From Amoebophrya sp. A120 (lineage: Eukaryota; Protista; Dinoflagellata), in the NCBI GenBank assembly GCA_905178155.1, contig CAJINV010000006.1:3475573-3539572 (forward strand): a DNA stretch of 64,000 bases, written 5' to 3'. Below the pieces are notes generated by a model, which saw nothing but the letters and a program-made list of their open reading frames with translations, ran no database searches and was not told the origin of the DNA. Shown one piece after another: positions 22 through 64,000 of this stretch. The position numbers and the translations under genes were made by a program. Within the stretch, counting starts at the first letter, position 1. Every line of letters begins with the position of its first letter.

Positions 22-2367
22 GCGGTTCTTCAGTTTTTCCACTTCGTGCACGCGCTCGCCCAACTTGCTTCCCGTGTAGCCGCTGACGTAGCCCGACAAG
101 AGGAAAAAACCGCCGACGATGACATTTTCGTGTGTCATATGCAATACAAATTTCCCGCCCATGTACAAAATGCATCACAAATTTCACCAATTTGGAGCGT
201 AAAACTTGTCATGCTAAACTAGGATCGAAGCCAAGTTTTGTCATGCGGAGACCGCATTTGTACGTGTACGGGAAATTTGCTGTGGATATGTCAGAAACTT
301 CAGGAGCGGCAGCGAGATCTGGTTCTGCTTCTCGTGTCGTGCCGTCGCAAGTGCCGCCGGTATAAAGTGGCCGATGATGATGGGTAGAACTAGCAAAAAC
401 CTACACCCATCCAAGGAATCCAAATGCGGTTTGCTTCCCGGCAAAGGCGCGCCCCCCGGCCCCGTGGTGAGTTGGCGACTCGCAGCTCTAGTGCCAGCAG
501 CAACGGGGGTGAGGGACCGGGGAACAGTAGGAAGATTTTCTGGTTTTTGTTTCCCGGACAGAAAAGTCGTTTCGATCTGCGACTGCTCCGCAGACGACGG
601 AACCTCGACGACGGCGGGGGCAATTCCGCCGTAAATACCCTTCGACTGGAGAAATTGGATTTTGCTCTGGCGGATCGTGTATGAACTGCAAAAGTATCGT
701 ACTCGTATGAATGCATTACAAATTTTCTCAGCATGAGAAATAAAATTTGTAATGCTGATATGCCTTGACAAAGAAATTTGTAATGCAAGACGTGCATTTA
801 TACGAGTACGATACTTTATTTGCACAGCATACCGTGTCCGACCCAATCCCCACGTTGATCGCAGATTCCAAACTCGCAATCGTGCTGTTCGAATGCATTG
901 CAAAAGTATGTAGTAATTGCATCTATCGTTCGTTCGTTGTGGATCGGCTCTGCCGACCGGGTAACCCATCGCCTCGCATACAAATGACCGACATAGGCGA
1001 ACCCCGTTGCGGGACATACAAATTGGCCGTGCGGAAGGGCCCTAAGCGCTACATACATAGTTCACCCTAAGCGCCTACCACTTCGGTCGGGACTGAGTCT
1101 ACCTGGTCCTGGGCATCTATGCATTACAAATTTTGCTTTTATGGTAAATCCGCATTAGCATTACAAATTTTCTTTGTCATGCTGAGCTAATTTGTAATGC
1201 AATTTTTACAAGTAGTACGATACTTTTGCAATTCATAGTTCGAATCTGACCGTCGGAGGGTGGACGACCCCGGCGCGGGATATGACACCCTCAGAATGGA
1301 AATCCTCAAAGTGGAAATAATTTGTGATGCATGTAATGCGACACCAAAAAGTCTGTATTGCAGAGAACGTAATGGAGGCCGACTACTGTGCTTCTACGGG
1401 TTCAGAATTGGGATGCTGATTAGCATGACAGAAGGGCACCCCTTTGCCTACCTAGCATGACAGACACGTTTTGAGTGCCCGGGAAATTTGTCATGCGCCG
1501 ACTAGAAATGGTGCTCCAACTGGAGTCGTTTTTTTGCATTACAAATTTTTTTCACTTTGAGGATTTCCAACCTGAGGCTTTCATACGGGAAGCCCCAGAG
1601 GACCGGTTTGGAGTTGTTGGCCTCCATTATGTATCAAAAGTAAAAGGGTCTGGGTCTGGAAACTTGTGATGCTGCGTGGCGTCTCATGATGAGGCTACAG
1701 ATGCTGGCTCAGCATGACAAGTTTCCGAGCTCCTAGGTGTTGCCTATTCTGCATGACAAACTGCGCTTCAAAAACGGAGCTCTTGGGTAACGTGCATGAC
1801 AGATTTAAGAGTCATGCCAGACAAGCATGACAAACATGAATTCTGCCAGACCCAGACATTTTCACAGTTGATATTACCACTGTTTGTTCCTAGTTGTTCC
1901 CTGCTAATTTGATTAACCTCTCCGCCGGTTGAAGATGCATTCGAGGGGTCGTTGGAGGTGCCGCTCCCCCGCGCTGGTGTATGGAAGCGTCAGGATTGAA
2001 ATCGTCAAAGTTGGAGTAATTTGCAATGCATAAAACGGATACCAGTTGGTACCTAGTTTTCAAGTGGCGCATGACAAATTTGGGTAGAACTACCGGGATC
2101 CAGTTTGTAATGCTGTTTGGGTAAGGAAGCCGCCTTCTATCATGCTACTTTAGCACCTCTATTTCTACCCCTCAACAGGCTTACCATCTGTCTCCCTTGC
2201 CTACTCTGCTAGACCGGCTCTTTGTGGGTTGCATTTTATGCATCACAAACTATCTCATTCTCAACTTTGTCGATTTCAAACCTGACGCTTCCATATGGTG
2301 CCGTTCCATCGTACGCGCTATGGTATTCGCGAGAGCGACGCCGCAGATTCTTGTGGGTGAGCATCAT
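1..2367 (-). CDS. Acyltransferase family 3 (OafA/YrhL-like, Acyl_transf_3) membrane protein; 3' end beyond window
   Basis: Removing 6 introners (+5 nt each) gives one frame MMLTHKNL...HLDSLDGCRFLLVLPIIIGHF...VIVGGFFLLSGY; LDGxR..H and FFxLSGY are Acyl_transf_3 hallmarks. Start uncertain. Confidence 0.8.
138..288. mobile_element. Introner family A (TIR TAT..AAATTTCCCG)
   Basis: DR TGTCA. Confidence 0.9.
680..831. mobile_element. Introner family B (TIR TAT..TGCAAAAGTATCG)
   Basis: DR TCGTG/CCGTG. Confidence 0.85.
892..1237. mobile_element. Introner family B with nested insert
   Basis: DR GTTCG. Confidence 0.85.
927..1112 (-). mobile_element. 186-bp SINE-like insertion nested in introner 892-1237
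   Basis: 8-bp duplication GCATCTAT at 919-926 and 1113-1120; (AACG)3 tail at minus-strand 3' end; no TIR. Confidence 0.65.
1281..1585. mobile_element. Introner family D (TIR TATGGAAGYGTCAG-like)
   Basis: DR CGGGA. Confidence 0.9.
1632..1873. mobile_element. Introner family C (TIR TATCAA..GTCTGGGTCTGG)
   Basis: DR TTATG/TTACC, frame restored. Confidence 0.85.
1980..2295. mobile_element. Introner family D
   Basis: DR TGGTG. Confidence 0.9.
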
Positions 2368-4080
2368 TTTGGATATTACTGCACTGTAAATTTTTCAAAG
2401 ACATAAATACCACGTTGCCCCCCTTACGCCGAATGTCTTCTCCTGGGCGCCGGGAAGAATAAACTAATAATGCTACGAAAATAACTAGAACTACATCATG
2501 ATCATTTGCCAAAGGACTTGGACTTGTTGCGGCGAGATACAAAAAACACAGCGAGAGCATGATGAAAAACGAATTTATCGCCCGCCCGGAATAGACGTGG
2601 TTGGACGATGAAGCGAAAACATTTATCAGGTGGTATTTTCTTTTTTCAACGTGAAGATTATATACGAGCCCGACTTCTGACGAGTAAGTACCTCTTCCCT
2701 TGAACGATGAAACACACAATAAACACTGTATTGTCATCACCGAAGAAGTAGTTGTTTCGGAAAGGTAAAAGAACTTGTTCGCTTCAATAAATTCACAACC
2801 GAGTATTTGCATCAAGTCGACCATCAGCTACCCACCCCAATTTTTCAGAACCTCTTTGCGCAAGTCCTCAAAGAGTCGCGGAATACGAAGAAGCGAGAAG
2901 CGTACGAATCAAAAATAGCAGCACTTTATAACTTTTTCGCCCTAGATCGACGGAGGTGGCAGCTTGGTACCACCAGCAGCCCCAGGCACCAGCGAAAGAA
3001 CATCATCGACGCAGGAACTCTACTTGTACATCTTCCACCTCTTTCCCTTTCGCTTGTTCTGTAGTTTTCATCCTCCTAAGTAAACGCAGCCACCCCTGCA
3101 GGCCGCGAGCCTCATTTTCTTGGAAGTTCTTGTTGTTTCCATCGATTCATCTTGCATGCCGTGCCTCGACAAGTATGCTGCATGTAGATGTTGTACAAGT
3201 GGTGCCAAAGCATAATTCCTGTACTCAAGTGTCACAGCATAGATACGTAGTCGTGTAAAGCTGCTGCTCATCTTCGTGGGAAATAGATCACACGTGGGCA
3301 GCAAGGTGGTCGTTGTATAGATGAACCTACGTGGAAGTTGTACAGGAACTTGTTCGTTTTTTAATATGGCCTCGACGTAGTTTTTCAAGAACATGAATTT
3401 GAATTTCAATCATTGTACACGACGGACTTGTCTATATCGTAATCATACATGGGAGAAGTGAAGTGAAGTCTAATCTTCTCATCATACAGATACAACCAAC
3501 ATGGGATAAAATTAAATAAAACTAAAACTTCTCCTACAAGCACAGTGCATGATCCTCTCCTACAGGCAGGAGATGATCCACTGATTCCTCCTGCAGGCTG
3601 CAATGATTACGAAAAAAGAGCACTATGAACTACACCGCGAGAAGCGCTGCCGTTCTTTCGGGTGGCACTGTACCTGAAGTGGTTATAGTTGTACCACTTC
3701 AGGACGACGCCCTTTGGAGGCCTCGCACTTCTGGCGGGACATAATTACTTAGTACCTACAAAGCAACTTTTTTAGGCGAAGATGACGCGACAGAAAATCT
3801 CCGGCAACTAACTTTGATCGAGACGGGAAGGAGTCGGATAATTTGGCACTTACCACCGGCGGTAGTACATTTTTAGTATTCTTAACCTTATACTATACCA
3901 GATACGACTCTATAAGACCACTCCCATCTACAACTTTGTCCGAGTCATCTATTGGAAGATCTCCAAGAAGATAATTTGCCTGGTGAGCCGGGTCATCTTC
4001 CCCGAATTAAAATTATACAGGCTTATTCTTGATCGCTTTGAGATCTCGTCCGCAACATGGCGTGGCTTTGAGTTGTTCTC

Positions 4081-6649
4081 TCAGCTGTCTTTTTGTTTGT
4101 TTCCCCGTTTTGTTCCACAACATCGGACAAAGCGCCGACGTAGCCTTTCACCCAAGCCACGGTCCGCCTGGCGCGCGCGCGTTACCTTTTCCCACCCTTC
4201 TGGCGTCCAGAGAGCGTTTCCGCGTTCTACCGGTGCAATTATGGTAGGGAAAATAAACGGGGCCCACGCCCCACGGTCAAGATGGGAATTTTTTTGCAAC
4301 ACAAATCCAGAAGCTACTTCGGGAGTCACGCATGACAAGTCTCTAGCACAACTAGCTGTCGCGTGGTGCAGATTCGCAAGAAGGGCAGCCACATCTTCAA
4401 CACAGAGCCATCTGCTTATGATCCTATTTATTATACGTTTACACCATCACAAATGCCGAAACACGAATGTGTCTCATGGGCGGGATCATGCGCATTACAA
4501 ATCTTGCTGTAGATGCGAATCTCCATGACAACTCTGAGGTGCAGTAGTGGGCCTCGTTTTTCGTCAGGATACAAAAAGTTGTCGCCTCTTCATTCACCAC
4601 CCCTCCATATTCCTCGTAGGAGCAGTCGTACACTTCATAGCTTTTGTCCTCCGACGAGGTAGCTCTAGTACTACTTGGGATGTGGATACTAAACTCCGCA
4701 GCAGCTGGAGGTAGCGGCTGGTGTTTGTTGTTCCAATACCATTTGTCCCCACAAATTTCCATTACCCGTTCTCTTCCTTCAAGTTGATGCGCTTTTCGGA
4801 TAATTTCTGGTGATACGATTACCACCTCGGAAACCCATGATTGGGTTTGAAACCAGGGCCAGCGGTTCACGGGCTCGGCAGGCGTGTGGCGAAGCGTGAC
4901 GGCGACCTTGCGCAGTTCTGCATAATTACGGCCGTGGTTATCCGACGTGAGGGCAAATTTAAACTCAGCGGTGAGCTTCGGGCGGCGTTCCGCCACGTAA
5001 AAAGCGCCACTTGAAACGGGCTCGTGTCCACTGTACTCTTGAAACAGGACGGCATTATTTAAACTGCTGTCTCTGTAAACCGAGGTGCGGTAGTAGATGG
5101 CTTCCTCACGGCTCTCTAGACGAAGCGTCACCTGTCGGACAGGTGACGCTTCGTCTGGAGAGTCGTCAGGAACAGGAAGCCATCTCCAGTCCACAACGGG
5201 CTTCTTCAACTCTCCCGGTGCTAGCAACAAAGATATCCAAGAAAAAAACTCCCTTAGTGTAGGTCTAGGTGTGCTGGTGGTGTCATTGGTTTTTAATTGC
5301 ATGACAAAATTCCTCTGCATCACAGAGAAGTCCTCTTGTCATGCACAGCTAGTACGTGAAAACACGTACGAAAGCAAGACATTAATATGGCTGGTACGCA
5401 TTACAAGTGTGCCTCCTGCGTTGCATGCTTTCCACGTAATACAGACAATACACCACTACACTGCTTTTTTCTTGCATAAAAGACGCCGCGCGTTCAACGT
5501 CGGCGATCGGCGGAAAACCTTGGCGAGTTGTCTCCGCTGCGTCAGTATCAAATGTAAAAATGTCTGGGTCTGGAAGAATGCATGTTTGTCATGCTTGTCT
5601 GGCATGACTCTTAAATCTGTCATGCGCATTGCCCAAGAGACGTTTTTTTCTGTCATGCGGAGACGCAGTTTGTCATGCAGAATAGGCAACACCTACAAGC
5701 TCAGAAATTTGTCATGCTGAGCCAGCACTTGTGGCCTCCGTATGCTACGCCACTCAGCATCACAAGTTTCCAGACCCAGACATTTTTCCATTTGATAGTC
5801 AGACTCGCGGCGCCCGCCGATCGGCGGAACCGTCAGCAGCACCTCTCTCGGCGCCATCAAGTGGGACGGCGCTTGACCACCACGGCGAAGCCCACTGCTG
5901 GCGCTACCGCCCTCCTCCCTCCGTACTTCATGTCGAGGCTGGTACGCAAGCAGGCTGCGTAGAAAGTTACGCGCAAAGACGGTAACCACGCGCGACCGCT
6001 GCAGCTGGGCCACCTGGTTTGGGCCCTCAATGCTGGCCCCCAATGCGGTCCGACCCCAACCGCGACCGGCAGTGGCTAGGCTTGTCTTTTCTTCCTTGGT
6101 TAACAGAGAGCGAGGCTCTCCGTCTAGGGACCCTCCACCTAGGTGCTCGGCAGCGAAAGGTTGCTGGACCGCATTCATAGCTGATGAAGATCTTGCATCA
6201 ACCGCCCCAGCGACCGGCTCTACTTCTCTGCCGCGGGAGAGAACAGTGCTAACAAGCGGGCGCTGCTGGGCAAGGAGGTTCGCAAAATCTGCGGAATACG
6301 CGTGGTTCTTCTCAATACGTCCTTCTTCGGGAGCAACAGCACCCCCGTCGATCCGGATGGGAGCGAAGTAGTCTTCCAAGTTGGCAACTGGAAGTACAGC
6401 CTCGTCTTTGCTGGTTGTACCACGAGTAGGCGACCGTCCGGCGCCACGACTCCGTCCCGACGAGGAAGGGCTTCTACTTGGCCGCCCTCGGCCAGCACCA
6501 GAAGAGGACGACACCTGAAGTTCCAGGGCTTGGCACGTATAAACGACACTGCTCGACGTCATACTTTCCGATAAAAGAAGCAAGGCCGCCGCGGTGCTGC
6601 CGGCCAACTTCCACGACACAGACGAGGTTTTGGTAGTTTCCTTCATCAT
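4081..6649 (-). CDS. Hypothetical protein with signal-peptide-like N-terminus
   Basis: ORF-track segments 5693..6649, 4439..5323 and 4081..4392 join in frame across 3 introners; last junction has a poor DR, so C-terminus less certain. Confidence 0.6.
4240..4571. mobile_element. Introner family E (TIR TATCCTGAGTAAAAACG-like), diverged
   Basis: TIR and core motifs; poor DR. Confidence 0.75.
5234..5478. mobile_element. Introner family L (TIR TATCCAAGAAAAAA)
   Basis: DR AAAGA. Confidence 0.9.
5546..5797. mobile_element. Introner family C
   Basis: DR GTCAG. Confidence 0.9.
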
Positions 6650-8205
6650 TATTGTGCAACTTCTACTACTTTGCTAGAAGTGCTGTTTTACTTACAAATG
6701 GAAAGGAAATGTCTCCTCCTTTCTTGTCACGAATTTGCAGGTGAAGACAATGGCTTGAAAAACTTCGATATTACGGGTGGAAAAATAGTGGGTGTCAAAC
6801 GTTATAGAGCGATCTATAATCGCTATGGTCAGAGTAACAATTTTTTGTAAAGAATAACAATTCGTCTAACTAGGATCTTCTGCACAGAGGTTTTTTCGTA
6901 ACTCAAAGTTGTACTAGGTGAAAGTACGTAGAATTACAAGCTGTTGAACTGTGGGGAAGACCAACATGATTTGGCAAGTGCATGTTGTCTGTCACAACAG
7001 AATATTAGAACGATCTCGGAGGCCAGGCGGGTGCGAGTACGACATACGCCGCGCCTGCGAAATTTTTCATCAAGTCAGGATCCTGAATTTTATCCACCGA
7101 ATGTAGGTCTTGTACCGACCCCACCTTCGAGGGGGACTGCTTAGAATTGCGAGTTTTTCGTGACCAGCAGCGAGAGAGCACAAAAACAAGAAACGACCGC
7201 GGATTTTGTCATTTTGATCTTATTGGATGATCCTGTCTATAATTTTGGTCGTGATGTGGATCTGCCGACGCTTGGCACACGAATCCAAAGAACCGATATG
7301 GAAGATCTGAGTTCTTGCCTGCGACTTCTGATCAGGTTGAGCTGCTGAGGTCCTCGTGGATCTGGGCCTTCACTTATTTCTCGGGCCTGCAGATCTGAGG
7401 ATGCACATTGTTCGCGAAGATCGCTCCTCGACCTTTCTTTGCAAACTGATCGAAAAAAATAGAAAAAAAGGACCATCATCCGGAGGCAAAAGAGCACCGT
7501 CTGCGAGCGTCTCGATAGCACTGGTACAAAACCAGAAAGAACTCCTAGTGCGATTTTCTCAATTTGCGATAGCAATGCAGAGCAATACACGACCTTAGGA
7601 TCATCACGAAGTTGCGCGCCTGCGCGCAATAAAATGTGCAACTGGTGCAGCACTGCTGAAAATGAAAAACTCTGCGAAAATAAATTATGAGAAGGTGATT
7701 GATACGGATGTACTGCAAGTAAAAACTTCTCAGCATGATTTGTCATCCGATCACTCACAACGTCGTCATGATCTGTCGTCATATAAAGCGATGTTGAATG
7801 GGCTCGTTTTATTCATGTTGGTCCCTTCAGGGTGCAACTGCAATGTAAATGCTGCACCTTATCGGTAGAAAGATTAAACCCTGCTGGGCGACGAGGAGAA
7901 ACAAATCCGACCTCCTGGGCGAGGAGAAGCAAACAGTTACCGTATTTGCACTTCTGCTTTCGCGATTTGATATAAATAAACTCTGATCATGTTCATGTTG
8001 TAAAAATGTTCAAAAAATAAAGGCAGTTTTTAGTTGTTGAAGCGCAAGCGTAAAAAGTCGTGGTGGTCATTAGATTTTACTAGCTGATCTTTTAAATTTG
8101 ATGCAGCAAGGATTATCGTCTTGCCTTTAGTCTTGGTAGTCCTCTCGTCGGTTTTTGCGTGATCATCATCGCGTGTGAATACTCATAGACTCGTCGCTGT
8201 AGTCT

Positions 8206-11200
8206 TCACAATGGCCCCTCCTGCTTCTCCAGTTCCCGAATCAAATCCCAATCCGCCCAGGGCACGTACTTTATATGAAATGCAAAATAAGCATCGTACT
8301 AGTAGAAATCGCATGACAAATTCCCTCAGCATGAAAAATGGAATTTGTCATGCGGATTGAGGTTGAGAAGGAGATTTGTAATGCGTGGTTGCGATAATGA
8401 CTACGAGTGCGATACTTTTATTGCACAGGATACTTTATCTTCCCCGACACAGCGTCCTTCTTCATGTGGTTTTTCCGGAACACGCACCTTTGCATATCCT
8501 GCGTAAAAACGTCCCCGCGGCCCCATAGTCAAGATGATGGGGAATCTGCTAGACAAATCCGCCAGATTTTGTTGTTTCGCATGACAGGTTTGCGATTGCC
8601 CCCACAGTCGCACCCGGTTTAGCTAGTTCAGCAGCATCACAGATCTAGAATATCATGCTGATTCTAGCATCACAAATTATCCCCGAACACGACTAGAAAA
8701 TGCTTCTCATGTGGCTCCGCATGAGAAACTTTTTTGCAGGCATGCAGATTTGCATTGCAACTCTGGGGTTGGGACGTTTTTGCCCAGGATATTCCAACAT
8801 GTTGAAGTCTTCGTCCCACATTTTTTTCCACATGTAGAGCCAGAACACATGCTATGAAATGCAGGAGCATCGTACCAGTATAAATCGCATGACAAATGAT
8901 CTCCTCAGCATGAGAGAGAGAGATAGAATTTGTAATGCGGATTCAACTTGAGAAAGAAATTTGTGATGCATGAATGCGATTAGTACGACTACGATACTTT
9001 TGCACAGGATACATGCGACTCCCTGACGATCTCCATTGCCTGCTTGCATTGGTGGTTCAGCCTGTCCATGTCAATTGGCTCAGGTTTGCTGGAGCTGCGG
9101 CATTCTTCGTCTCCGTCGGTTTTCAGCCACAAGTCGTACTCTTCCTTGTCGTACATATGCTTCAAAACTTTCGAACTGCTGGCTCGGTAGTTGTCCTGGT
9201 CGTAGAATTCTTCTTCAAATTCGCACTTGATTACATATGAAACGCAGATAGGTCTGGGTCTGGAAGCTGCTTGCCGGGTTTGTCATGCATATTTTGCATG
9301 TCCACTGATTATCTGTGATGTATGTATGCCCTAGAAGCATCACAGACGTCTAGAACTCTTCCTGTTCCTGATCCTGATATGCCTATTCCGCATTAGAAAT
9401 GCCCTACACATTGCAATTTTTTTCGAATCCGGAGACAGCATTACAAGTTGCAACCTTCCAGAGGACCCAGACATATTTGCAATGCGTATTCCAGCTTCCT
9501 TCTCAAATTCTTCGATTCCCACCGAGTCGAAGTTTTTCAGGTGCCAGTGCTTGTACGTTTCGAACTCATTCAGACACTTCTCCACGAAAGATTCAGTGTA
9601 TGAAAGTGGAAATAAAGAACTCCTCGTCGTTGTTAGTTGTCCCCCTCATTTCCAAGGCATGATAACCACTCGTGCTATAATGCTTGCAGCTGCCCGTGCC
9701 CCCGCGTCCTAGAACTGCGCTGCATCTAAGAAGTTGCAGCACGACTACGGTAATAAACTGCGGCGCTAGCATCTAGAAGCACTTCTTCTCGTCCTCAGAA
9801 GTAAAAACTACACGAGGATCATTGTGCCTGTTAGTGCTTCATCTCTTGCTGGTGTTCATGCACAACTTGAATCGAGATGATAGTGAGCGGGGAGGGGGCG
9901 AGGTCGAGGGGTGACACAAGTAGAGCAGTTCTCTTTGTGGTCCACTTTCATACAATGCTGCTATCGTGATGCTCGGGATCGCAGACGTGGTGCCAAGGCT
10001 TCAAAGTCCCCGAATAGTGAACCACGGCGATGCGAAGGCGGCCACTGAGATTTCATTTTAATATTGTGTAGCTGAATGTAAAAATTACGAGCATTTTTGA
10101 ACTCGCAGTGGCACTCGATGAAATTGGAATCATAATTCGAAAGACGAGAAAGCTTGGCTTCATAAGGCTGCAACCAATAACATACATAGAAGAAAAACTC
10201 GCCCTGTTGAAAAGAAAAAAAATTATCAATCTTACATCGGATCCAAGTATCGCTTGCGTTCCGCACAATTAAGCGGGTTCATGTTGTGAAAAATCTGGTG
10301 CTATCAACTGTAAAAATGTCTGGGTCTGGAAGATTCTGACACTTGTCATGCACGGTTTGCATGAGACATGATGTCTGTGATGCATGCCCTAGCATCACAG
10401 GTTTTTTGCGGGATTCTTGATGCCTATTCCGCATGATAAATGCCCTCTCCGCGTAGCAAAAATTAGAATCCTTTTGCTGCTCATGCAACACAAATCTTTT
10501 AGACATCCATATGCAGCATGACAAGTTGCATTCTTCCAGACCCAGACATTTTTACATTTGATAGGTGCAGCTGAAAATTGAACCGAACAGAAATGTTGTG
10601 CCAGGGGTAGTCGGCAAAGTAGCGCGACAAGAAATCCTGCTCCGGCGCGGTGGTGTTGATGTGCTCCGGGTGTCGGGTCGTTTTCACAACCGTACACACG
10701 TCCTGAAACCGCTTCGCGTCCGGCTGAAACAGCATGTATCCAAGAAAAAAACGTGTGTAGGTGTAGCTTTGTGCTGCGGAAGATGCTAGACGCTTACGTT
10801 TGTCATGCTGGACATGCATCAGAGGCTCTTTTCGCACTAGTTTTCACTGATACTAGCTACGCATGACAGGTTTTCTCTGTCATGCAGAGCAAACTTGTGA
10901 TGCTGTTCCTCCAAGAAAGTTAAACTTACACAGTTTTTTACTTGCATAGCATGACCCCGGCGTTGATCCCCGTTCCCTGGAAAAACGCCTCCGGCCACTG
11001 TTCATTTTCCTTCGGTGCTTCGGGGCCGGACAGACCCTTCCGGAAGAAGTTGGTATGCAGCGCAAATTATATGTCTGGGTCTGGAAGAGTGCAAGAACTT
11101 GTGATGCTGCATTTGGATCCTAGAAAAATTTGCGTTGCATGAGCAGCAATGGGTAATGAGAGTCTTGCTAGGTGGAGGGGGCATTTGTAATGCGGAATAG

Positions 11201-18674: not shown

Positions 18675-19012
18675 ATTTTCCTCGGAAATTGAATCGCGGT
18701 GCTATGGTGGTGGTTTTGGCCTCGCTTCGGGCGTGTTTTGCTGCCGCGCTCGCTACCCAAAAAAGGGAGCCCGGGAAAGCCAGCAAAACAGACCAGGCCC
18801 CAGACTCGCCTCGAAACAAGGCAAAAAACGGCGCCATACCGTCGCGATTCAATTTCCGAGGAAAACTCAGAGCCCCCTCTTCGCCATTTTCCTCGGAAAT
18901 TGAATCACGACGGCACGGGGGCGATTTTGGCCCCCTTCAGAGGGGGCCCTCCGGAGGCCCAATCCGGCCCCCCCGCGACCCCCCCTTCGGCATTTTCCTC
19001 GGAAATTGAATC
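18675..19012. repeat. Four copies of TTTTCCTCGGAAATTGAATC (one inverted)
   Basis: Copies at ~18675, 18846 (inverted), 18886, 18992. Confidence 0.85.
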
Positions 19013-53492: not shown

Positions 53493-54689
53493 GATAGGCG
53501 TTTAAAAATAGTTTGGCTAATATTAAAATTCTGTACAAGGCGAAGTAGCTGTAGCTTCCTTTAGCCGACTATCAAAAAGTCTGTCTTCCCGGAGGAGCAA
53601 GAACGTCAATCGACATAGTTATAGGTCTCGTGTGCAGGTAGAAGAATCGATGTAATATACTCACATCACAAGAACCCGCCCAACAGCACCAAATGCATGA
53701 CGAGCGTCATGCTTCATGATGTCGTAGTCTGCGATTGTAAACAAAGACTGAATATAGTGCTTGCGTGAAAATAAGAAAGGATTCGTCTGGGTAGAATCTG
53801 CCGTGGCTCAAGAAAACAAGCGTTATTTGACATAGCGATAACTTTTGTTCGGCACCAGCAGGGGTTTTCAAAAATTATAGATATAGTTATACTCAAAATT
53901 TTCAGATCGTCATTTTCCCGTTGGTTGCGCGGTCAAAATATTGGGAGTACTACTTAATTTCAGACCCAGCTCGTCCAGCAGCAGCAGCACTGGCACTGCT
54001 AGTCCGTGCTATCTCATGATCCACAGTAGACCTTCAAAAAGTAAGAGCCACACACTCGATCGCGGGAGGCCTGTTGCCAACAAGAACCTCACGTCAACAC
54101 ATCTGACAGAAATAAAACGAGTCAAGCAAAACTTTAGCAGACAGGGTACTATGAGAGAATGAAGCGAGTAGAACGGAGAAAAACTTGTTTGAATACACGA
54201 CAAGCAAACTGGATTTGTTCACCGGGACTCATGGGGCAAACATCATGGGTCAAAAATTTCAATGGGGTCCTGTTGGAATGACAAAGTCGTCCCAGGAGGT
54301 TGTTCTTCTTGTTGTATTTACAGTGATAATTTTCTTTGACATTCATCAGAAACAAAGCTCCAGATTGTAGTTTCGCGCGAAGTCTGTGTGGCGGTATCCT
54401 CCATCTCGTGTCGCGGTCACCCGCTGAAGATAAAAACAGGTTGCAGTTCAAGAACCGATAATCTAGGTTTACGTTTTTGAAACAAAAAAGCCGACATTGT
54501 CTTCGTTCACTTGTTTCCACCGAGAAGTAAAGAAAACAACCGATTAGGTCGATATTATATTTTTCAAACCTATATATTCTCAAACACGACCGAAACTTCA
54601 TCTTCAAATAGTAGGACCACTAGTACACTAGGAGTCGGCACCAGCAAAACAAAACTGAATTTCGTCGGATGTCTAAATATTTATACTCG

Positions 54690-57600
54690 CTATAGTTGAG
54701 ACGGAATCCCCGGAATGTCAAAGTTTCGCACCCGCATATCATCCGCGGCGATATCAGACTATGCATTGCAAAAGTATCGCACTCGTATAAATGCATTACA
54801 AATTTCCTCAGCATGAGAAATAAGATTTGTAATGCTGATTTGCCTTAACAAAAAGACTTGTAATGCACGACTACAATACGAGTGCGATACTTTTGCACAG
54901 GATACAGACTCGTAGCTGTAATTCGTTTCCAACAGCGGAAACGGGTACTGATTGAACCTGATCTTTATCAAAGAAAAAAAGTTCGTCACGATCACTCATG
55001 CGCATTCTTGCAATACAAAATTGTTTATCATGCGTAAAAATGCGTCACAGCCAAACTTTATTAGGGATTTCCCTAGTGTTTCTGCAATACAAGGAAAGTT
55101 TGTGATGCTGAGAAAATTTGTAATGCAAAACCTGCAAGTTAGTGACTGTGACAAACTTTTTTCTCTCCATAATCTTCCCCACCGTGGTAATATGCACTGC
55201 AAAAGTATCGTACTCGTCGTACTAAATAGCAGCCATCCATTACAAATCTACTAATCAAGTGCAATCCGCATTACAAATTACATTTGTAATGCTGAGCCAA
55301 TTTGTAATGCAATTTATACTAGTACGATAAATTTCCAGTTCATAGGTAATATCCGGATGCGACTTCGAGCCCAAGTTCGTTACCGTTAAGGTCCACGCCT
55401 GCGCCGTCGTGTTCGCGACATGATTATCAACTGCAAATATGCCTGGGACTGGGAGAATGCGAGATCTGTCATGCAGGTTTTACCTGCCCCAGACCGTCTG
55501 GCATGCGAGCTCTAGCATCACAGATTTAGATTTTGTTGAGCAGCTACCCCAATGCCTTCTAATCAGCATGACAAATCCCCTCTCTCGGAAACAAGAAGCG
55601 GGGCCTTTTGCTGGCCATGCATGACAGATGTTGTCATGCTGTAGACCTCGCATCACAAATTCGAATCCTTCCAGACCCAGGCATATTTGCATTTGATAAT
55701 GATTCGTAGTCGCCCCCGCACCGTTGGTCGAGGACAGAGAGCCGCTGGAATATGCCGTTGAAAAGCATCGCACTCGTACAAATCGGTATTGCAAAATCAT
55801 GCAACACAAATCTCATTCGAATAGGTGAATCTGCATCACAAATTTCTTTTCTCATGCTAGAGAAGTTTGTCATGCGATTTTTACACGTCTATGTCTACGA
55901 CGCTTTTCTTGTAGCGGATATGGAAACCCCGCCGCCGATGTCGCACCAATCCGGCACGAAAAAGGGGTGCTTCCCGGTCAGGGGTTCGGCGTCGTGGCGG
56001 AGAAAAGTGCTGTTCCCCAAATCGTAAACCGCGTCCCACTTGATTTCTCCCGTCAAGTCGTTTTGCAGAGTGACTTTGATCTCGCCCAACGGGATTCCAA
56101 ACCTGATCTGGGGGTGGTGTATGGAACTCTACTCAGTTGTTACACTCTCAAATGTTTGCATGAATTTGTAATGCAAGAATAGCAAATAAAGTCAAAGGGA
56201 GAGCAGGGTTGCGCCTCTAGCATTACAAACTCCACACAGATTTAGATGCTGTTTAGCCCTTGATGGGGTGGAATTTGTCATGCAAAACGCAAAACGGCTT
56301 GATCCTGGGGTTGCTATATGGTAATTTTGCATCACAACCTCATGCAACAGTTGAGAATGTAACGTTTGAGCACGCCATATGGTGCCACCAGAACTTTTGC
56401 TGGAAATCGTCTCCAGCATGGCAGTATGCATTGCAAAAGTATCGTACTAGTACAACTTGCATCACAAATTTTTTCAAGAAGAAAAAATGGAACTTGTAAT
56501 GCTATATTTGTGATGCATGTTAGCAATTGCTACGAGTACGATACTTTTGCACAGGATAGGCAGCCGAAGCGCCCGTTGAGGTTGAACAAGTCGGTGAACT
56601 GGATTAACGGAGAGCGATCCATAATCATGAACTTCTGGCCCTGGTCTAAAGCGAAGTTGTGGTGCTTGATCCAGTATCAAATGCAAAAGTGTCTGGGCTT
56701 CCTGGAAGTCATGCAGATTTTGCATGACCTATGAGGTCTGTGATGCATGCCCTAGCATCCGAGATTCTCTGAGGGCTTTCTAATGCTCATACCGCATGAG
56801 AAATCAATGTTTTGCTTCTCCGCGTAGCACAAATTGCATCTCCTTTGCTGTTCATGCAATACAGATTTCATGTAGATTCCAAAGGTAGCATCACAAGTTG
56901 CAATCAGCCAGACCCAGACATATTTGCAATGCATATCCAGTGTCGGGGGTTTTGAATCGGAGGGAAGAAGGACTCAATCTTTTCCGGCGTCATATCCACA
57001 GTAAATTTCCCGTACACGTACAAAATGCATGACAAATTCCGCTAACTTGCAGTGTACAACTTGTCATGCTGGACTAGGATCGAAGGCAAGTTTTGTCATG
57101 CAGAGACTGCATTTGTACGTGTACGGGAAATTTACTGTGGATACGTCATCTGCTCCTTCACCATGGTCGCCATCGCAGCAGAGGTCGTTGGGCCCATAAT
57201 CGACCCCGCAACGTTCGTATGCATTACAAAAGTATCGCACTAATCAAAAATGCATCACAAATTTTTTCCAAGGAAAAAATGGAATTTGTAATGCTGATTT
57301 ACCTAAAAAGGGACATTTGTCATGCATGATAGCAACAATTGGTACGAGTACTACGATACTTTTGCACATGATACTTCGCGCCCTGTTTTATGAAGTTCAG
57401 TGGCCCTTTCAACACCTTCGCCACCACGGTGCCGAGCGCTAAATTCGCGCGCAAGGCGGTGCCGAGAATTTCGGCGAGAAAGGTATGAGACTACACAACC
57501 CCCCCTCCCCCTCATTTGTAATGTATAATACAAAATCCAAACTGTGCTTCTTGGCACTGTTTGCATGACAAACTCCGGAAGCCTAAACAGCACGACACTC

Positions 57601-58512
57601 CTGTGGAAATTTGTCGTACAAAACCGGCATTCTTGCTGACCCTTGTATTGCCGTTCATGCTATACAAATGAGGGGGAGGGGGAGTTGTGCACTCTCATAA
57701 AAAGGCATGGCATTGGTGAAGCTGGACAGCATTCCGCCGACGTCAAAGAATTGGGTGGCTTGTAAAAGCTCCTTCTGCTCTTTCGTGAGGTTTTTCCGGT
57801 CTTTCGGGAGGGTGGACAGGTGGAAAAGGAGGTTTTTATTTTGCAGGTTCTTTGTCGTGCTGCTGCTGCTGTTGTCGTCGTCAGGATTGGCAGCTTCTGG
57901 TGCTGCTGCGCTTTTACCAATGGTAGGAGATATTGATGAAGATGATCTTGAGGCGCCAGCACGATCAGGCATCATGTTTTTGTGCTGCGTCTTCAATCTT
58001 TTCACACTCGGATGCGCGAACAACGTGTTCGGGTCCAGTTTACTGTGATGGGACGTCTTGATGGTGATGGAGGTCGAGGCAATAGTGCTCCCGCGATTCG
58101 CTGGTGCGTTGTGGTCGTTTTGCGGCGTCCTCTCCGAAGGGGCAGTGACGAAACTAGAGGCCGCAGCGCCAGCATCGGTAGTTGTTTTCTCTTGTACTTG
58201 TTTTACAGCATGAGCAGGCATTTTCGTGCGTGGTTGTGAGGAGCCAATTGCAGCATGATGGGAAGCACTAGGAGGTTCCGTCGTCGCTGAGAGGTCCTCT
58301 GGGAGAAGCAAAGCCTTGTCCTTGAATGATGTGGCGATTTTCCGCGGCAGCTGATCCCGAACAGAGAACTGGAACTCTAGTAAAACCTGATGGCTGGTGA
58401 CGCTGGTTGCCGTACTCCTGTTCTGCTTGCTTCTCGAAAAAGAAACTTCTGGGTCCATCTCCAGATGCTGGTCTCTGAACATCAGATGAAAGCGCTCGGC
58501 AAGAAAACCCAT
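54690..58512 (-). CDS. Hypothetical protein
   Basis: Frame continuous across 11 introners (MPFLAEILGT...KFWWHHPQIRFG...DIPGIPSQL*); start uncertain. Confidence 0.7.
54760..54904. mobile_element. Introner family B
   Basis: DR CAGAC. Confidence 0.9.
54966..55171. mobile_element. Introner family I
   Basis: DR ATCTT. Confidence 0.9.
55191..55344. mobile_element. Introner family B
   Basis: DR GGTAA. Confidence 0.9.
55425..55698. mobile_element. Introner family C
   Basis: DR ATGAT. Confidence 0.9.
55751..55920. mobile_element. Introner family B, diverged
   Basis: DR TGGAA. Confidence 0.9.
56120..56379. mobile_element. Introner family G
   Basis: DR TGGTG. Confidence 0.9.
56425..56558. mobile_element. 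Introner family B
   Basis: DR GGCAG. Confidence 0.9.
56675..56935. mobile_element. Introner family C
   Basis: DR TCCAG. Confidence 0.9.
56993..57143. mobile_element. Introner family A
   Basis: DR CGTCA. Confidence 0.9.
57218..57373. mobile_element. Introner family B
   Basis: DR GTTCG/CTTCG. Confidence 0.9.
57484..57699. mobile_element. Introner family J
   Basis: DR AAAGG/AAAAG. Confidence 0.9.
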
Positions 58513-59315
58513 GTTGGCTTGATGTTTTTCTTTGGTGTAGTTGAGAAGCTTTAGTTGTTGAAGAAAATTATATACGGAAAGCTGCACAAAAGACGAATTC
58601 AATTGGCCAACAGGAGGTACGTAGATTGAAATTGAAAAAGCACCATCGCGAGGACAACAACATAGATGAAGACGGTCGATAGAATTGCACTTCTTGCCCT
58701 CTCTGTGCGATCGACGTGAGGTCCTGTCTCTCATCTCTTGTTCGACAAATCAAACCTAACAAGTCCCTGACACAACGAATTATTCGAGGTCGCGACAACT
58801 TCTGGGCCTCGTCCAGAAAAGAACATGAGCATGACGAGGACTCGTCCAGAAAAGAACAGCGCAGTCACTGCGCTGCCTACTTTCAGTCCCAAGCCAAGGT
58901 GCCGGTGCCCCCTTGGCGGCTTGCACGACTTTTGCAGTGCCTGATTATCGCGAAGTTGCTTATCAATCTCAATTTACAACGAGCGTGCGCCTGCCCGCCA
59001 CAGACGGGCTGCATCCTCGGTAGGACTAGAACAAGATTGCTTTGCGTTTAAGTCGATGTAAAAGTACAAGACGGCCATCTTGCGCGTTGAATGATGATGA
59101 AAGAAGGCTGTTTAATATGCCCAGCACCACCGTGCTCGTTCTGCCCTTCTCAAAGCAAGTTCAAGAGACTTCTATGTTATTTTCGAAAGCGCTAACGCGG
59201 GCAACATCCTCCACATCCCTCATAACCGGGTCGCAGAAGCAATGCTCCGGTTCCGCTCCCGCAGTTTTTGTCACCTCACGTTTGTTCTAGGAAGATGTTG
59301 GTCTTGGTGTTCTTG

Positions 59316-59573
59316 TATCAAATGTAAAAGTGTCTGGGTCTGGGAACTTGTGATGCTGGGTGGCGCCTCATGATGAGGCTACAAATGCTGGCTCAGCATG
59401 ACTTGACAAGTTTCTGAGCTCCTAGGTGTTGCCTATTCTGCATGACAGGCTGCGCTTCTGCATCACAGAAAAGCGGAGCTCTTGGGTAACGTGCATGACA
59501 GTTTTAAGAGTCAGGCCAGACAAGCATGGCAAATCTTGCATTCTTCCAGACCCAGACATTTTTGCATTTGATA
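59316..59573. mobile_element. Introner family C (apparently in 3' UTR)
   Basis: DR TCTTG. Confidence 0.9.
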
Positions 59574-59698
59574 TCTTGTCGACCGTGCTGCTCCTGCCTT
59601 CTGCAACTGCTCGTATTTGACTGAGTACAAGGAAGTATTTGTTTTTGCGAACAACGGCGGTAAGATCTACTAGCCGAAAGTAGAAGACGAGTCGGACA

Positions 59699-62256
59699 CT
59701 ATATCCTCCCGGGCGAAGAAGTACTGCCACCACCGCCGCCGATTGGCGAAGAAAGTATTGGTCTCCCCTCCGCATTATCAAATGCAAATATGCCTGGGTC
59801 TGGAAAATTGTGATGCAAGTCTCTGAAAAATGGTGGGCGCACTACAATATGCAGCCAAGCATGACAAGTTTTTGCACTGCCATGTGTTTCGTTTTTCGCA
59901 TGACAAGCTGCGTTTTTGCATGACAGGCACCAAGCGCAGGCCCCGATCCTGCTTATGCATCACAGATCTAAGAGTCATTCCAGACAAGCATGACAAGTCC
60001 TACATTCATCTTCAAGCCCCAGACATTTTTGCAATGCGTACGCATCTCTTTCCCCCGCATCAGAATCCGCCGCTCCGGTTTTCGAGTTTAAACTTCCCGT
60101 TTCATCTTGATCTGCGTCCCCGTATATCCTCTCCCCCGCGTAGTAATATCGAAAGGAAAAATCCCGTCTCCCCATATCAAAACGAAGGCTCTGATGCTGG
60201 ATCTGCGTACACAAGTCAAATCTGTCTTGCCCTGGAGAGGAAGGCAGGCCCATACGGAGCTTAGCGAGAGAGGATGTGGGCTAGGTACTAACTTGGCATG
60301 AAAAAAACGTCTGTGCTGTAGCCCCAACAGCATCACAAGCCGCGTGAGCAATGCGGCGGAGCTGCTTGTGGAGTTGCCGTCTTGCAAAACAGATGCGATT
60401 TGTGGCCACAAGTCAGCAACATAAATTTTCAGAAGCGTGCCTTGTCGATCGTATGGAGACGGGAGATTTTTCCTCACAATAAGTAGAACGCGCCCATCAC
60501 AGCTGCGTACATGCCAATGAAGAGGAACGAAAACAGCACCTCGGAGTAGTGACCGGAGTCCGGGTGGACTTGTGAGCCCGTCCAGAGCGACATGACCGCC
60601 GCGATGATAAACTGGGGCTGTTTCAGCGCAAACATGACCTGTGCGAGGATACCGTGCCACTTCACCACCCCTCGTTTTGGCAAGGACGTGTACTTGAGAA
60701 CCCCACCGGCATCAAGTGCAAATGTGTCTGGGTCTGGAAGGATGCAACTTGTCATGCTAAGTCTGGGTAGTGCAATTATTTGTGTTGCGTGATTACCAAG
60801 AAGTGTCCACTTCTGAACAAGCTTAGCGGCAGTGTCTCATGCAGGATAGACATGATGGAGAGTTCGCAGAACCTGTCGTGCTAGGTCCTGCATTGCAGAC
60901 CTCATGGGGCATGGAAAATATGCATGGCAAGTCTGCATTCTTCCAGACCCAGACATTTTTGCATTTGATAACCGGCGATCTGGATCAACCAGCAGATTAG
61001 CAGGGAATAACCCAGGTAGACGTGGACCTGATAGTAAACAAACACAAAGGTAGTTTTTGATGAATTTGTTGAAATCATCTTTGGATTCATTTTTGTGGCA
61101 AAGAGATGAAACCATCATGGCTGTCTTACTGCAGTAAGGAGTTCGCTCAACATGATGAGAAAATCCAAAATGGTTGCACGTTCTGCAACACGAACACAGT
61201 AGACGCAGCTCTACTATACCTGATGCCACCACGGTGAGTCTTTTGCGAAGTGGCTGGCCCTATCAACTGTAAAAATGTCTGGGTCTGGAAGAATACGCGA
61301 TTTGTAATGCAGGTTTTCCATGCCCCATGAGGTCTGGAATGCAGGGCCTAGCATGACAGATTCTGCGAGAGCTCTATCATGCCTATCCTGCATGAGAAAC
61401 TCCTTTTCACCTTGGTCAAAAATGCACGGCTTTTGGTACTCATGCAACACAGATTGTTGCATGATCCAGATTTAGCATGACAAACATGCATTCTTCCAGA
61501 CCCAGACATTTTTACATTTGATAGGCCCCTTTCTCCGCGTGCTGTAGGTACATGAACAACCATCCGAGAAATATCCCGAGCAAAAACGTCCCCACCCCAG
61601 AGTCAAGATCGGGACCCCGCAACACAAATCGAGAAGTTTTGGCAGTCAAGCATGAGAAGTTCGTCTCTGTATTGTAGTGCAGGTTAGCAACGACAGCCGC
61701 AACGCAAATCCATCTACTCATCCTGTTTAGAGCATTACAAAGTCCAAAACACGATTGGAAACGCCTCTCATGGGGATGCGCATTACAAATCTTCCTGTGA
61801 CTGGAAATCTGCATGACAACTCTGGGGTGGGTACGTTTTTACTCAGGATAAGAAAGAAAAACAGCCCGGCCAAGCTCATCAGTATCACGTGATTCCTGGA
61901 CTCGTTCCCCTGCTCCAGTATTCCGAGGCCCATCAAACCTAACCCGATGGAGTTGCAGACAGGATGCAGCATAAATTTCCACACATTGCTGTACTTCTGA
62001 ATAGCCACGGCGGAGACGGCGAGGGCAACGGAGATGGCGAGATATGCAAGGCAAAAGCATCGACATCGTACTAGTATAAATCGCATGACAAATTTGCTCA
62101 GCATGAGATATGAAATTTGTCATGCTGTTTTACCTTGGAAAGGAGATTTGTAATGCATGACTGCAATTACTACAACGAGTACGATACTTTTGCACTGGAT
62201 ACGAGAGTCCCGCCTGCCATGTACCAGCGGGAGGTACGGGGAATCTTCACCGGCAT
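59699..62256 (-). CDS. Cytochrome b561 domain protein
   Basis: FMLHPVCNSIG, SRNHVILMSLA, WHQVHVYLGY, VKWHGILAQ: four spaced His in TM helices; 6 introners + 1 GT-AG intron; 3' end may extend if another intron exists. Confidence 0.75.
59776..60040. mobile_element. Introner family C
   Basis: DR CGCAT. Confidence 0.9.
60147..60481. mobile_element. Introner family F
   Basis: DR AGTAA/AGTAG. Confidence 0.9.
60710..60970. mobile_element. Introner family C
   Basis: DR ACCGG. Confidence 0.9.
61028..61219 (-). other. Canonical GT-AG intron
   Basis: GTATAG...TATCAG; join WWHQ|VHVYLG. Confidence 0.8.
61261..61523. mobile_element. Introner family C
   Basis: DR GGCCC. Confidence 0.9.
61572..61850. 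mobile_element. Introner family E
   Basis: DR AGAAA. Confidence 0.9.
62043..62201. mobile_element. Introner family B
   Basis: DR CGAGA. Confidence 0.9.
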
Positions 62257-63376: not shown

Positions 63377-64000
63377 TCACCTCGGCGGCAGCAAGTATTC
63401 ATCCGCCAACAGGTATGGAAGCGTCAGGTTTGAAATCGACAAAGTTGAAATACAAGAAATAACTTGTAATGCATAAAATCGATACCAGTTGGAAGCCCAA
63501 TTTCTAAGCGGTGCATCACAAATTTTGGCTGTCCCTAAATCCAGTTTGTCATGCTGCTTAGGCAAAGAAGACTGTCTTTCTAATGCTACTTTACCAGCTC
63601 GAACAGGCTTACAATCGGCGTCACTTGCCTGCTCTGCAACACACGCACCTCGCGTCATGCATTCTATGCATTACGTATTATTTCAAGAACTTTGACGATT
63701 TCGATCCTGACACACCCATAACAGGTCATCCTCCTCGTCCACGATGTCTTCATGCCTTACCGTTTATCACACAGAAAAAAGCAGGCAGGTCACATTTGTA
63801 ATGCAAAAATAAATACACAAAAAAATCTGTATCGCATATCCGAAACAGCGTGCGGCGGGGCCTCCCATGAAAGACTTTTCTGTGTATTTATTTTTGCATC
63901 ACAAATGTGCCCTGCCTGCTTTTTTCTCTGGGATACCGTTGGACCCCTCCCGTCATCCTCGTCGTCATTGCCACCACCTGCATCCGCTACCCCCTCCTCC
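63377..64000 (-). CDS. 3' end of hypothetical protein (acidic tail); 5' beyond window
   Basis: ...GPTVRHEDIVDEEDDLLADEYLLPPR* in frame across 2 introners. Confidence 0.55.
63414..63720. mobile_element. Introner family D
   Basis: DR ACAGG. Confidence 0.9.
63765..63935. mobile_element. Introner, M-like with ~60-bp TIR
   Basis: DR CCGTT. Confidence 0.9.

What the first reader, a model, noticed from the sequence alone, without database searches (positions are those of the whole stretch)
138..63935. One short motif, TTTGT(C/G/A)ATGC / GCAT(G/C/T)ACAAA, tiles the interior of otherwise unrelated introner families
Seen: most elements carry several copies in alternating orientation, often as inverted pairs (e.g. 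GCATGACAAATGGAATTTGTCATGC near 40778 and 50224), spaced a few tens of bp apart, while the sequence between copies is family-specific. The motif is scarce in exons and intergenic DNA. Inference: shared retention across families points to a common trans-acting binder (transposase sub-terminal sites, a chromatin protein, or a splicing adaptor) or to stacked RNA hairpins.
Basis: partly seen in the sequence, partly recalled or inferred. Interest (0 to 1): 0.8.

Follow-up and report, generated by a model that had tools for sequence, protein, structure and literature searches.

The report
Shared docking word in jumping introns
About a hundred short mobile elements sit as introns in the genes of this window, and a dozen mostly unrelated families of them share one 10-letter word at regular 16/32-base spacing; the word is likely the DNA docking site of the protein that copies them around the genome, not a splicing signal.

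Summary
The motif is real: 152 exact hits (0.85 expected), 145 inside 96 elements with TAT ends and 5-bp target duplications. Its fuller form, GCA-N-B-ACA-R-R, occurs about 4 times per element. Same-orientation neighbours dominate, so 'alternating' is wrong. New points: (1) sites sit on a 16/32-bp lattice in 11 families whose spacers and TIRs mostly show no homology; (2) the core stays fixed while families diverge, yet decays in inserted copies at the neutral rate (about 3-4%), equally on both transcript strands and without covariation between inverted partners; (3) the element's first two bases, in contrast, are protected only at the transcript 5' end, where the splice cut falls 0-1 nt before TAT. 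Best reading: DNA binding sites for the mobilising transposase or its partner (0.65); splicing adaptor and stacked RNA hairpins are disfavoured. The elements match the published Amoebophrya A120-type introners; I found no mention of the internal motif in the texts seen. No transposase was found and binding is untested.

The parts
138..63935 (.). 96 TAT-ended elements with 5-bp target duplications, 20,970 bp in all, carrying 413 degenerate motif sites (145 exact)
   Evidence: duplications 5/5 in 70, 4/5 in 20, 3/5 in 3, 2/5 in 3
138..62201 (.). Family F0 (about 150 bp, 36 copies; sites > > < < at 18, 15, 31 bp): 138-288, 680-831, 8274-8432, 8853-9011, 12305-12457, 13793-13941, 14993-15143, 15904-16053, 16514-16681, 20605-20763, 21487-21650, 22109-22274, 22327-22470, 23449-23611, 29946-30096, 30632-30798, 31946-32084, 34336-34497, 35595-35743, 38116-38273, 38328-38484, 40725-40875, 41090-41241, 41725-41891, 48109-48267, 48480-48630, 50172-50321, 51220-51369, 51993-52137, 54760-54904, 55191-55344, 55751-55920, 56425-56558, 56993-57143, 57218-57373, 62043-62201
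   Evidence: start of 31946-32084 corrected from the joint
1632..61523 (.). Family F1 (about 262 bp, 24 copies): 1632-1873, 5546-5797, 9236-9488, 10302-10563, 11054-11325, 11829-12113, 14321-14582, 15199-15469, 15500-15748, 16755-17022, 25990-26241, 26708-26969, 33706-33981, 35275-35525, 47772-48034, 49020-49281, 50365-50624, 53128-53391, 55425-55698, 56675-56935, 59316-59573, 59776-60040, 60710-60970, 61261-61523
1281..63720 (.). Family F2 (about 308 bp): 1281-1585, 1980-2295, 22843-23154, 38554-38863, 63414-63720
4240..61850 (.). Family F3 (about 280 bp; all five consensus sites in one orientation): 4240-4571 (ends uncertain), 8495-8791, 30169-30480, 30901-31207, 31502-31780, 61572-61850
   Evidence: four copies removed from putative RNA in both insertion directions
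5234..50885 (.). Family F4 (about 210 bp): 5234-5478, 10737-10948, 33001-33219, 36818-37051, 50677-50885
37390..57699 (.). Family F5 (about 220 bp): 37390-37607, 42177-42399, 57484-57699
14638..56379 (.). Family F6 (about 236 bp): 14638-14877, 56140-56379 (left end uncertain)
11359..60481 (.). Family F7 (about 325 bp): 11359-11679, 32542-32868, 51431-51758, 60147-60481
892..63935 (.). Small families and singletons: F8 20804-20921, 32390-32498; F9 49331-49505; F10 34550-34759, 54966-55171; F11 34974-35228, 48680-48931; singletons 892-1237, 20985-21167 (right end uncertain), 33353-33560, 63765-63935
40778..40802 (.).
62083..62156 (.). Typical F0 triple: sites at 62083 (>), 62116 (<), 62147 (<): 33 then 31 bp
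32385..32503 (-). Element 32390-32498 with a 4/5 duplication: the joint keeps the transcript-upstream copy and brackets the 5' cut to 0-1 nt before TAT
59311..62206 (-). Host gene stretch from which seven elements, each plus 5 nt, and one GT-AG intron (61026-61217 region, no motif site) are missing in putative RNA contigs
18188..19668 (.). Outgroup: 1481-bp TA..TA element with 5-bp duplication and 44-bp TIR, no motif site, but its own internal repeat in both orientations that shares TTTTCCTC with its TIR

Best explanation
The 10-bp word is likely a DNA binding site for the transposase, or its partner protein, that mobilises these non-autonomous TIR elements in trans, and their removal from RNA likely depends on the element's ends instead. 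Shown: the elements have TAT termini and 5-bp duplications, interrupt minus-strand genes in either direction, and are missing with one duplication copy from putative RNA contigs; the word is fixed across families, sits on a 16/32-bp lattice, and decays neutrally once a copy has landed. Inferred: copies beget copies, so only those that keep several correctly phased sites are recognised and spread; 31-33 bp is three helical turns, which would put bound proteins on one DNA face, with inverted partners at 15-18 bp between them, building a cooperative complex that brings the two ends together. Inferred: the enzyme is an integrase-like DDE protein, because a published A120 family with TA/TA ends and 5-bp duplication has Copia/Gypsy homology. 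Not shown: the protein, and any binding.
For: 5-bp duplications: 60 vs 0-5 in shifted controls, 331 vs 0-7 in metagenome loci. Motif columns diverge half as much as spacers; core positions 1-3 and 8 by 5-9%. Tandem 31-33 spacing in 15 of 23 family representatives vs null mean 2.2, best-window null maximum 10; 38 of 47 neighbour distances in 11 consensuses within 2 bp of a multiple of 16 vs null mean 14.1, maximum 26; 23 of 31 after dropping related families. 165 of 166 metagenome elements outside F0 have two or more sites. Neutral reference about 3% per site (duplication pairs 6.2%; 3'-terminal base 16/487); motif core in conserved columns 326/8422 = 3.9%, not different from that base (p 0.63), and higher in copies with a mutated duplication (4.7 vs 3.6%, p 0.02), as spacers are. 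No strand asymmetry (4.3 vs 3.5%, p 0.10). Spacers differ 26-29% within families, far above 3%, so most change arose in spreading lineages that kept the word. Two TA-ended 5-bp-duplication elements lack the word and carry their own repeat echoing their own TIR. Precedent: abstracts of PMC1636448 and PMC3688188. Fam38 row of PMC12130899 supplement 8.
Against: No transposase found: 0 transposase or integrase hits among 146 metagenome ORFs and 36 window ORFs scanned; PMC7789003 reports none in A120 and rejects general transposase mobilisation. The word resembles TIR positions 4-13 only in F0 and F1 (2.2 and 2.8 mismatches) and not in F2, F5, F6, F7 (5-6, background about 6). Sites fill the interior and point both ways, and first-site distance from the end varies (27-50 bp, 75 in one case). 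In the 8 families seen only in the metagenome the 31-33 spacing was in 2 of 8 (null 0.5, maximum 5), not significant. In the window alone the age test hinted at protection of the core; over all columns neither core nor spacer rose with age. With 4-6 sites per element, single losses could be tolerated by a host function. Aligners anchor on motifs, which inflates the motif-spacer contrast. Period 16 was chosen after seeing the data (best-period null maximum 26).
Confidence: 0.65

Rival explanations
1. The word is bound by a host DNA-binding or chromatin protein that the elements co-opt (for bending, phasing or escaping silencing), the transposase itself reading only the TAT ends.
For: Same predictions as the best reading for conservation, phasing and strand symmetry. 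The TIR does not resemble the word in most families. The word looks like the animal Sox-Oct composite site (recalled; one passage of 10.1101/2022.09.23.509242 shows TTTGTCATGC in the DNA used to model such complexes), whose TTTGT half is an HMG-box type site (recalled).
Against: The word is nearly absent outside elements, including the GC-rich intergenic blocks (25 sites in 43 kb). Other TA-ended elements use different repeats tied to their own TIRs. POU proteins are animal-specific (recalled).
Confidence: 0.15
2. The word is an RNA signal for a splicing adaptor that replaces the missing U1 and marks these non-canonical introns.
For: All 21 listed element joints in putative RNA remove element plus 5 nt; the word is absent from the GT-AG intron at 61026-61217; U1 was not detected in A120 (PMC7789003); 84 of 96 elements carry both orientations; redundancy could mask selection.
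Against: Core decays at the neutral rate and equally on both strands, while the same data detect strong strand-specific protection of the first two bases at the 5' end (1/487 each vs 16/487 and 9/487). F3, with one-orientation consensus sites, is removed in both directions. Fixed 31-33 spacing has no obvious need in RNA.
Confidence: 0.08
3. The copies serve only as pairing arms of stacked RNA (or single-stranded DNA) hairpins.
For: Elements fold far better than shuffles (median z -6.1 in 30 sampled elements) and 383 of 826 site-strand cases pair with another site in the MFE. TIR arms covary (42 double changes vs 12.4 expected, 27 compensatory). Two F0 site pairs show excess matching at one position.
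Against: Pairing needs no shared sequence across families. MFE-paired sites show 97 single breaks and 0 doubles (1.2 expected, so weak), and their variable positions match less than chance (-0.027 +/- 0.009). F0 permutation tests p 0.2-0.6. Most neighbours are tandem. G-U pairs were not scored.
Confidence: 0.05
4. All families descend from one ancestor built of 16/32-bp inverted repeats, and the word is a functionless remnant.
For: Tandem spacers keep a faint inverted half-site at offset 14-15 and between-family spacer identity is 0.35 vs 0.29 shuffled; some families are related. This may well be the origin of the lattice.
Against: Core positions are 92-98% conserved across families whose spacers are near random; position 5 avoids A.
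Confidence: 0.07

Closest known systems
Introner elements (IEs) of Amoebophrya sp. A120 (Farhat et al. 2021, PMC7789003; passages, sections 12 and 16, supplement part 2 seen; figures not held)
   Same: Inverted repeats starting TAT, seven variable bases, then three or more A; 5-bp direct repeats; about 240-nt non-canonical introns in many families; co-oriented genes.
   Different: The text seen describes only terminal repeats, leaves the splice position unknown and rules out general transposase mobilisation; it does not mention an internal shared word, its lattice or its selection pattern. That the window is from this organism is inferred from the signature, not tested.
A120 introner family 38 and other 'TIR DNA, unknown' families (Gozashti et al. 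2025, PMC12130899; passages and 41 of 58 A120 rows of supplement 8 seen)
   Same: Row for fam38: 5-bp TSD, TA/TA termini, Ginger-like; many families of 150-320 bp classed as TIR DNA.
   Different: No internal motif in what I saw ('subterminal' 0 hits in the main text); fam38 has Copia/Gypsy homology, which I could not find in any element held.
Subterminal binding repeats of MITEs and long-TIR elements: Emigrant/Lemi1 (PMC1636448) and Galileo THAP sites (PMC3688188); abstracts seen. En/Spm TnpA sites and hAT subterminal repeats are recalled
   Same: Short repeated internal sites bound cooperatively, proposed to give specificity beyond the TIR.
   Different: Binding is shown there, not here. Here one word spans about a dozen families with different TIRs, fills the interior on a 16/32-bp lattice, and the elements are routine introns.
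IS3EU/GingerRoot superfamily (PMC10045372 and PMC6839031; passages seen)
   Same: TA..TA termini; integrase-related transposase would fit.
   Different: Duplication usually 6 bp (5 here); GingerRoot TIRs 100-150 bp (roughly 25-60 here); no transposase to compare.

Membership tests
Amoebophrya A120-type introner elements | IR starts TAT, 7 variable nt, then 3 or more A | tested here: met
   End profile (A at 11-13: 83-94%); F2, F5, F6 deviate in the A-tract
Amoebophrya A120-type introner elements | 3-5 nt direct repeat at the boundaries | tested here: met
   Exactly 5 bp
Amoebophrya A120-type introner elements | Removed from transcripts with non-canonical ends | tested here: met
   21 of 21 listed element joints = length + 5 in contigs of X3, X4, X7, whose RNA status is a guess; the 7 in the first lay have depth 0 in X1; reading frames restored at 69 of 96 junctions on the minus strand vs 16-29 for frame-breaking lengths or the plus strand
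Amoebophrya A120-type introner elements | Host is Amoebophrya | not tested
   Inferred from the published signature only; no genome held
Non-autonomous TIR DNA transposon (MITE) | TIRs, fixed-length TSD without target preference, short, multicopy | tested here: met
   578 elements in window plus loci
Non-autonomous TIR DNA transposon (MITE) | Cognate transposase in the genome | tested here: inconclusive
   None in 182 ORFs from about 0.57 Mb; genome not available
Non-autonomous TIR DNA transposon (MITE) | Empty sites in other individuals | not testable with these tools
   Only one DNA-like run laid; joined forms in other runs not given
Subterminal transposase-binding repeats | Short motif repeated in both orientations, better conserved than spacers | tested here: met
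Subterminal transposase-binding repeats | Motif related to the TIR | tested here: inconclusive
   Yes in F0 and F1, no in F2, F5, F6, F7
Subterminal transposase-binding repeats | Confined to the regions next to the TIRs | tested here: not met
   Sites run through the interior of 110-330-bp elements; in the 600-800-bp elements they cluster near the ends
Subterminal transposase-binding repeats | Bound by the transposase | not testable with these tools
   Needs EMSA or pull-down
IS3EU/GingerRoot | TA..TA termini | tested here: met
   definition
IS3EU/GingerRoot | 6-bp TSD | tested here: not met
   0 candidates at 6 bp, 60 at 5 bp
IS3EU/GingerRoot | Integrase-related DDE transposase in that clade | not testable with these tools
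   No coding element held
Intronic RNA element for a splicing factor | Strand-specific conservation and protection after insertion | tested here: not met

The most novel reading that the evidence does not exclude
One protein assembles along whole elements on a 16/32-bp lattice and mobilises a dozen families that share almost nothing else, while the same elements are spliced by a U1-independent rule read from their own end: the intron starts N-U-A-U (any first base, then the TIR), needs no AG, and ends 4 nt past the far TIR. Tens of thousands of apparently ruleless splice sites would reduce to one rule, and the word would be the bait that finds the missing transposase.
Probability: 0.3. Interest if true: 0.85.

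Novelty: new variant of a known kind. Interest (0 to 1): 0.63.

Why it matters
The published account left open how these introners move (no transposase found, no family-specific end motif) and where they are cut. A single internal word shared by nearly all families argues for one mobilising factor and gives a defined bait, with spacing mutants as controls. The contrast between neutral decay of the word and strand-specific protection of the first two bases separates the transposition signal from the splicing signal and brackets the 5' splice site, making both questions directly testable.

Tried and rejected
No whole genome was available and the metagenome records could not be searched by family, so the autonomous element remains open. 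Viral scan for the tandem pair: 67 loci, mostly 33-bp coding repeats (Ala-Leu/Ser-Gln), none with this element anatomy by my check; rejected as chance. The 815-, 753-, 631- and 622-bp TAT elements in the loci have no Pfam hit. The two raw-read RNA runs laid 9 and 2 reads and say nothing; no listed holder is on record as RNA. 'The word is the TIR core' looked general but holds for two families only. A window-only hint of protection after insertion did not hold in conserved columns of the larger set. The GC-rich blocks at 24-25 kb, 28-29 kb and 42.4-47.6 kb are not TA..TA elements with matching duplication by my scan. Literature: searches and supplement searches gave no paper on this word in introners; one search listed 30 of 220 papers, none on introners by title; figures, 17 of 58 A120 rows and supplement file 14 of PMC12130899 were not seen, and subscription papers are not covered. 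Rows dropped: two early calls (22660-22900 and a first version of 892-1237, later re-added), 5 metagenome candidates over 900 bp, 23 of 578 elements with more than 2 duplication mismatches, pattern-matched copies and all metagenome F0 copies in core-decay tests, and loci without a clear gene strand (506 of 555 oriented; 487 in families F0-F7).
Full report
What is there. The window is eukaryotic, 49% GC, with genes on the minus strand interrupted by short repeats. Pairing TAT[C/G] starts with [C/G]ATA ends gave 60 candidates flanked by an exact 5-bp direct repeat, against 0-5 in shifted controls and none at 6-9 bp. Relaxed calling gave 96 elements of about 100-350 bp, 20,970 bp in all; four have uncertain ends. 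These ends match the A120 signature in Farhat et al. 2021 (PMC7789003), so the host is likely Amoebophrya of that type; this is inferred, no genome was held.

The observation. The exact word has 152 hits against 0.85 expected; 145 lie in elements. Iterated profile building gave GCA(T/A)(G/T/C)ACA(A/G)(A/G), with 413 sites inside and 25 outside. Neighbours are mostly same-orientation (197 of 317). Two of the 7 outside hits fall in long minus-strand frames; the other five are unexplained.

More sequence. They hold the same families, so they are the same or a very close species and not an independent lineage. Of 166 elements outside F0, which the pattern did not select, 165 have two or more sites. 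Homology calling gave 578 elements with the window, 555 with at most two duplication mismatches.

Families. With motif and terminal 16 bases masked, most of 55 pairs among 11 consensuses show no homology; F5-F11 and F6-F11 do (z 7.3, 7.7) and three pairs are borderline. Beyond TAT and an A-tract the TIRs are family-specific. TIR positions 4-13 resemble the word in F0 and F1 only. The internal word is thus the main sequence that families share.

Spacing. Same-orientation pairs at 31-33 bp occur in 15 of 23 window family representatives (null mean 2.2; best-window null maximum 10). Inverted pairs peak at 15 and 33 (convergent) and 8, 17-18 and 47-50 (divergent). In 11 consensuses 38 of 47 neighbour distances are within 2 bp of a multiple of 16 (null 14.1, maximum 26). 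Tandem spacers keep a faint inverted half-site at offset 14-15, which suggests an ancestral alternating array. The test on 8 metagenome-only families was not significant (2 of 8). That 31-33 bp is three turns of B-DNA is textbook; that it reflects protein phasing is inference.

Selection between copies. Leave-one-out divergence in seven window families is 0.139 in motif columns and 0.265 in spacers; positions 1-3 and 8 change 5-9%; position 5 swaps among T, G and C 126 times and becomes A 12 times. Alignment anchoring inflates this contrast somewhat.

Selection after insertion. Duplication pairs mismatch at 6.2% per site and the 3'-terminal base at 3.3%, giving a neutral reference near 3% (up to 6% if the exonic copy is constrained). 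In columns at least 85% conserved the core deviates 3.9%, indistinguishable from that base (p 0.63), and more in copies with a mutated duplication (4.7 vs 3.6%, p 0.02), like spacers (10.9 vs 9.5%). It decays equally whichever form is on the transcript (4.3 vs 3.5%, p 0.10). Against this, the window alone hinted at protection, all-column rates did not rise with age for either class, and redundancy could hide host selection.

Pairing. Elements fold well (median z -6.1) and TIR arms covary, which may reflect pairing, subfamily structure or conversion. Motif partners do not: 0 double changes among MFE-paired sites (1.2 expected) and a deficit of matching at variable positions.

Splicing. Contigs of runs X3, X4 and X7 (RNA is the tool's guess; one study) lack element plus 5 nt at all 21 listed element joints, for nine or more families in both directions; the 7 joints of the first lay have no support in the DNA-like run X1; only the best-supported joints were listed. 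Removing element plus 5 nt opens minus-strand frames at 69 of 96 junctions. At all 7 joints with an imperfect duplication the transcript-upstream copy is kept; the tightest two put the 5' cut 0-1 nt before TAT if one rule applies; piece boundaries agree at three more elements. Each rests on one contig. Independently, bases T1 and A2 differ in 1 of 487 copies each at the transcript 5' end, but 16 and 9 of 487 at the 3' end (p 0.0002, 0.02), and the duplication has no base preference. The two GT-AG introns seen begin GTAT. An intron starting N-U-A-U is therefore the likely register (inference). The same data that fail to see host selection on the word see it clearly at the end.

Mechanism. Best reading (0.65): the word is bound on DNA by the mobilising transposase or its partner; selection acts through copying, not through each intron. 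Two TA-ended, 5-bp-duplication elements without the word (window 18188-19668; L127:3103-3623) carry their own internal repeats echoing their own TIRs, as expected if repeats track the mobilising protein; whether those two are spliced was not tested. Rivals: host DNA-binding protein 0.15, splicing adaptor 0.08, functionless ancestry 0.07, hairpins 0.05. No transposase was found in 182 ORFs.

Comparison. The elements are published (PMC7789003; PMC12130899, whose fam38 row reads '5-bp TSD, TA/TA termini', Ginger-like). Internal binding repeats are known for Emigrant and Galileo (abstracts). IS3EU/GingerRoot shares TA..TA ends but usually has 6-bp duplications, so I do not file these there. The word, its lattice, its selection pattern and the bracketed cut were not found in the texts seen; figures and part of the supplements were not seen and could show them.

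Verdict. A real, strongly non-random feature; a new variant of a known kind (subterminal-type binding sites in MITE-derived introns), unusual in spanning many families on a fixed lattice, and useful because it makes two open questions testable. Interest 0.63.

Noticed in passing
element ends, all families; window 30169-30480, 32390-32498 and others: The 5' splice cut falls 0-1 nt before TAT, and T1 and A2 are protected only at the transcript 5' end. The A three bases from the 3' end changes in only 3 of 487 copies, a weak hint of a further splicing role.
   Followed up: partly
window 18188-19668: 1481-bp TA..TA element with 5-bp duplication, 44-bp TIR, GC-rich interior and four copies of its own internal repeat in both orientations; no Pfam hit in two ORFs.
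   Followed up: partly
L127:3103-3623: 521-bp near-palindromic TAT-ended element with 5-bp duplication, no motif site, and GTTATCGAA eight times.
   Followed up: partly
window 42468-47617: GC-rich 5-kb block with nested inverted repeats (42468-42532/47553-47617, 43067-43768/45637-46351, 44922-44961/45089-45128) and two long palindromes near 43964 and 46660; right end looks TAT-like but no matching duplication; unexplained.
   Followed up: partly
window 24200-25200 and 27950-29050: GC-rich (62-72%) stretches without terminal repeats, perhaps intergenic or promoter DNA.
   Followed up: no
L131:1395-2209, L086:3622-4243, L083:2808-3438, L114:1561-2313: Long members (620-815 bp) with family ends and sites near the ends around unrelated filler; two share part of the filler by eye; no Pfam hit.
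   Followed up: partly
TIR positions 4-26, all large families: The two arms of one element covary at some positions (10, 14-16) but differ systematically at 4-7 in F0.
   Followed up: partly
L056, L063 (viral contigs): Phage stretches with 19 motif-like sites (GCATCACAAG repeats) in 3 kb; probably iteron-like and unrelated.
   Followed up: no
window 892-1237: 346-bp singleton whose right 120 bp is F0-like and whose left part has no sites; possibly a chimera or an F0 copy with an insertion.
   Followed up: no
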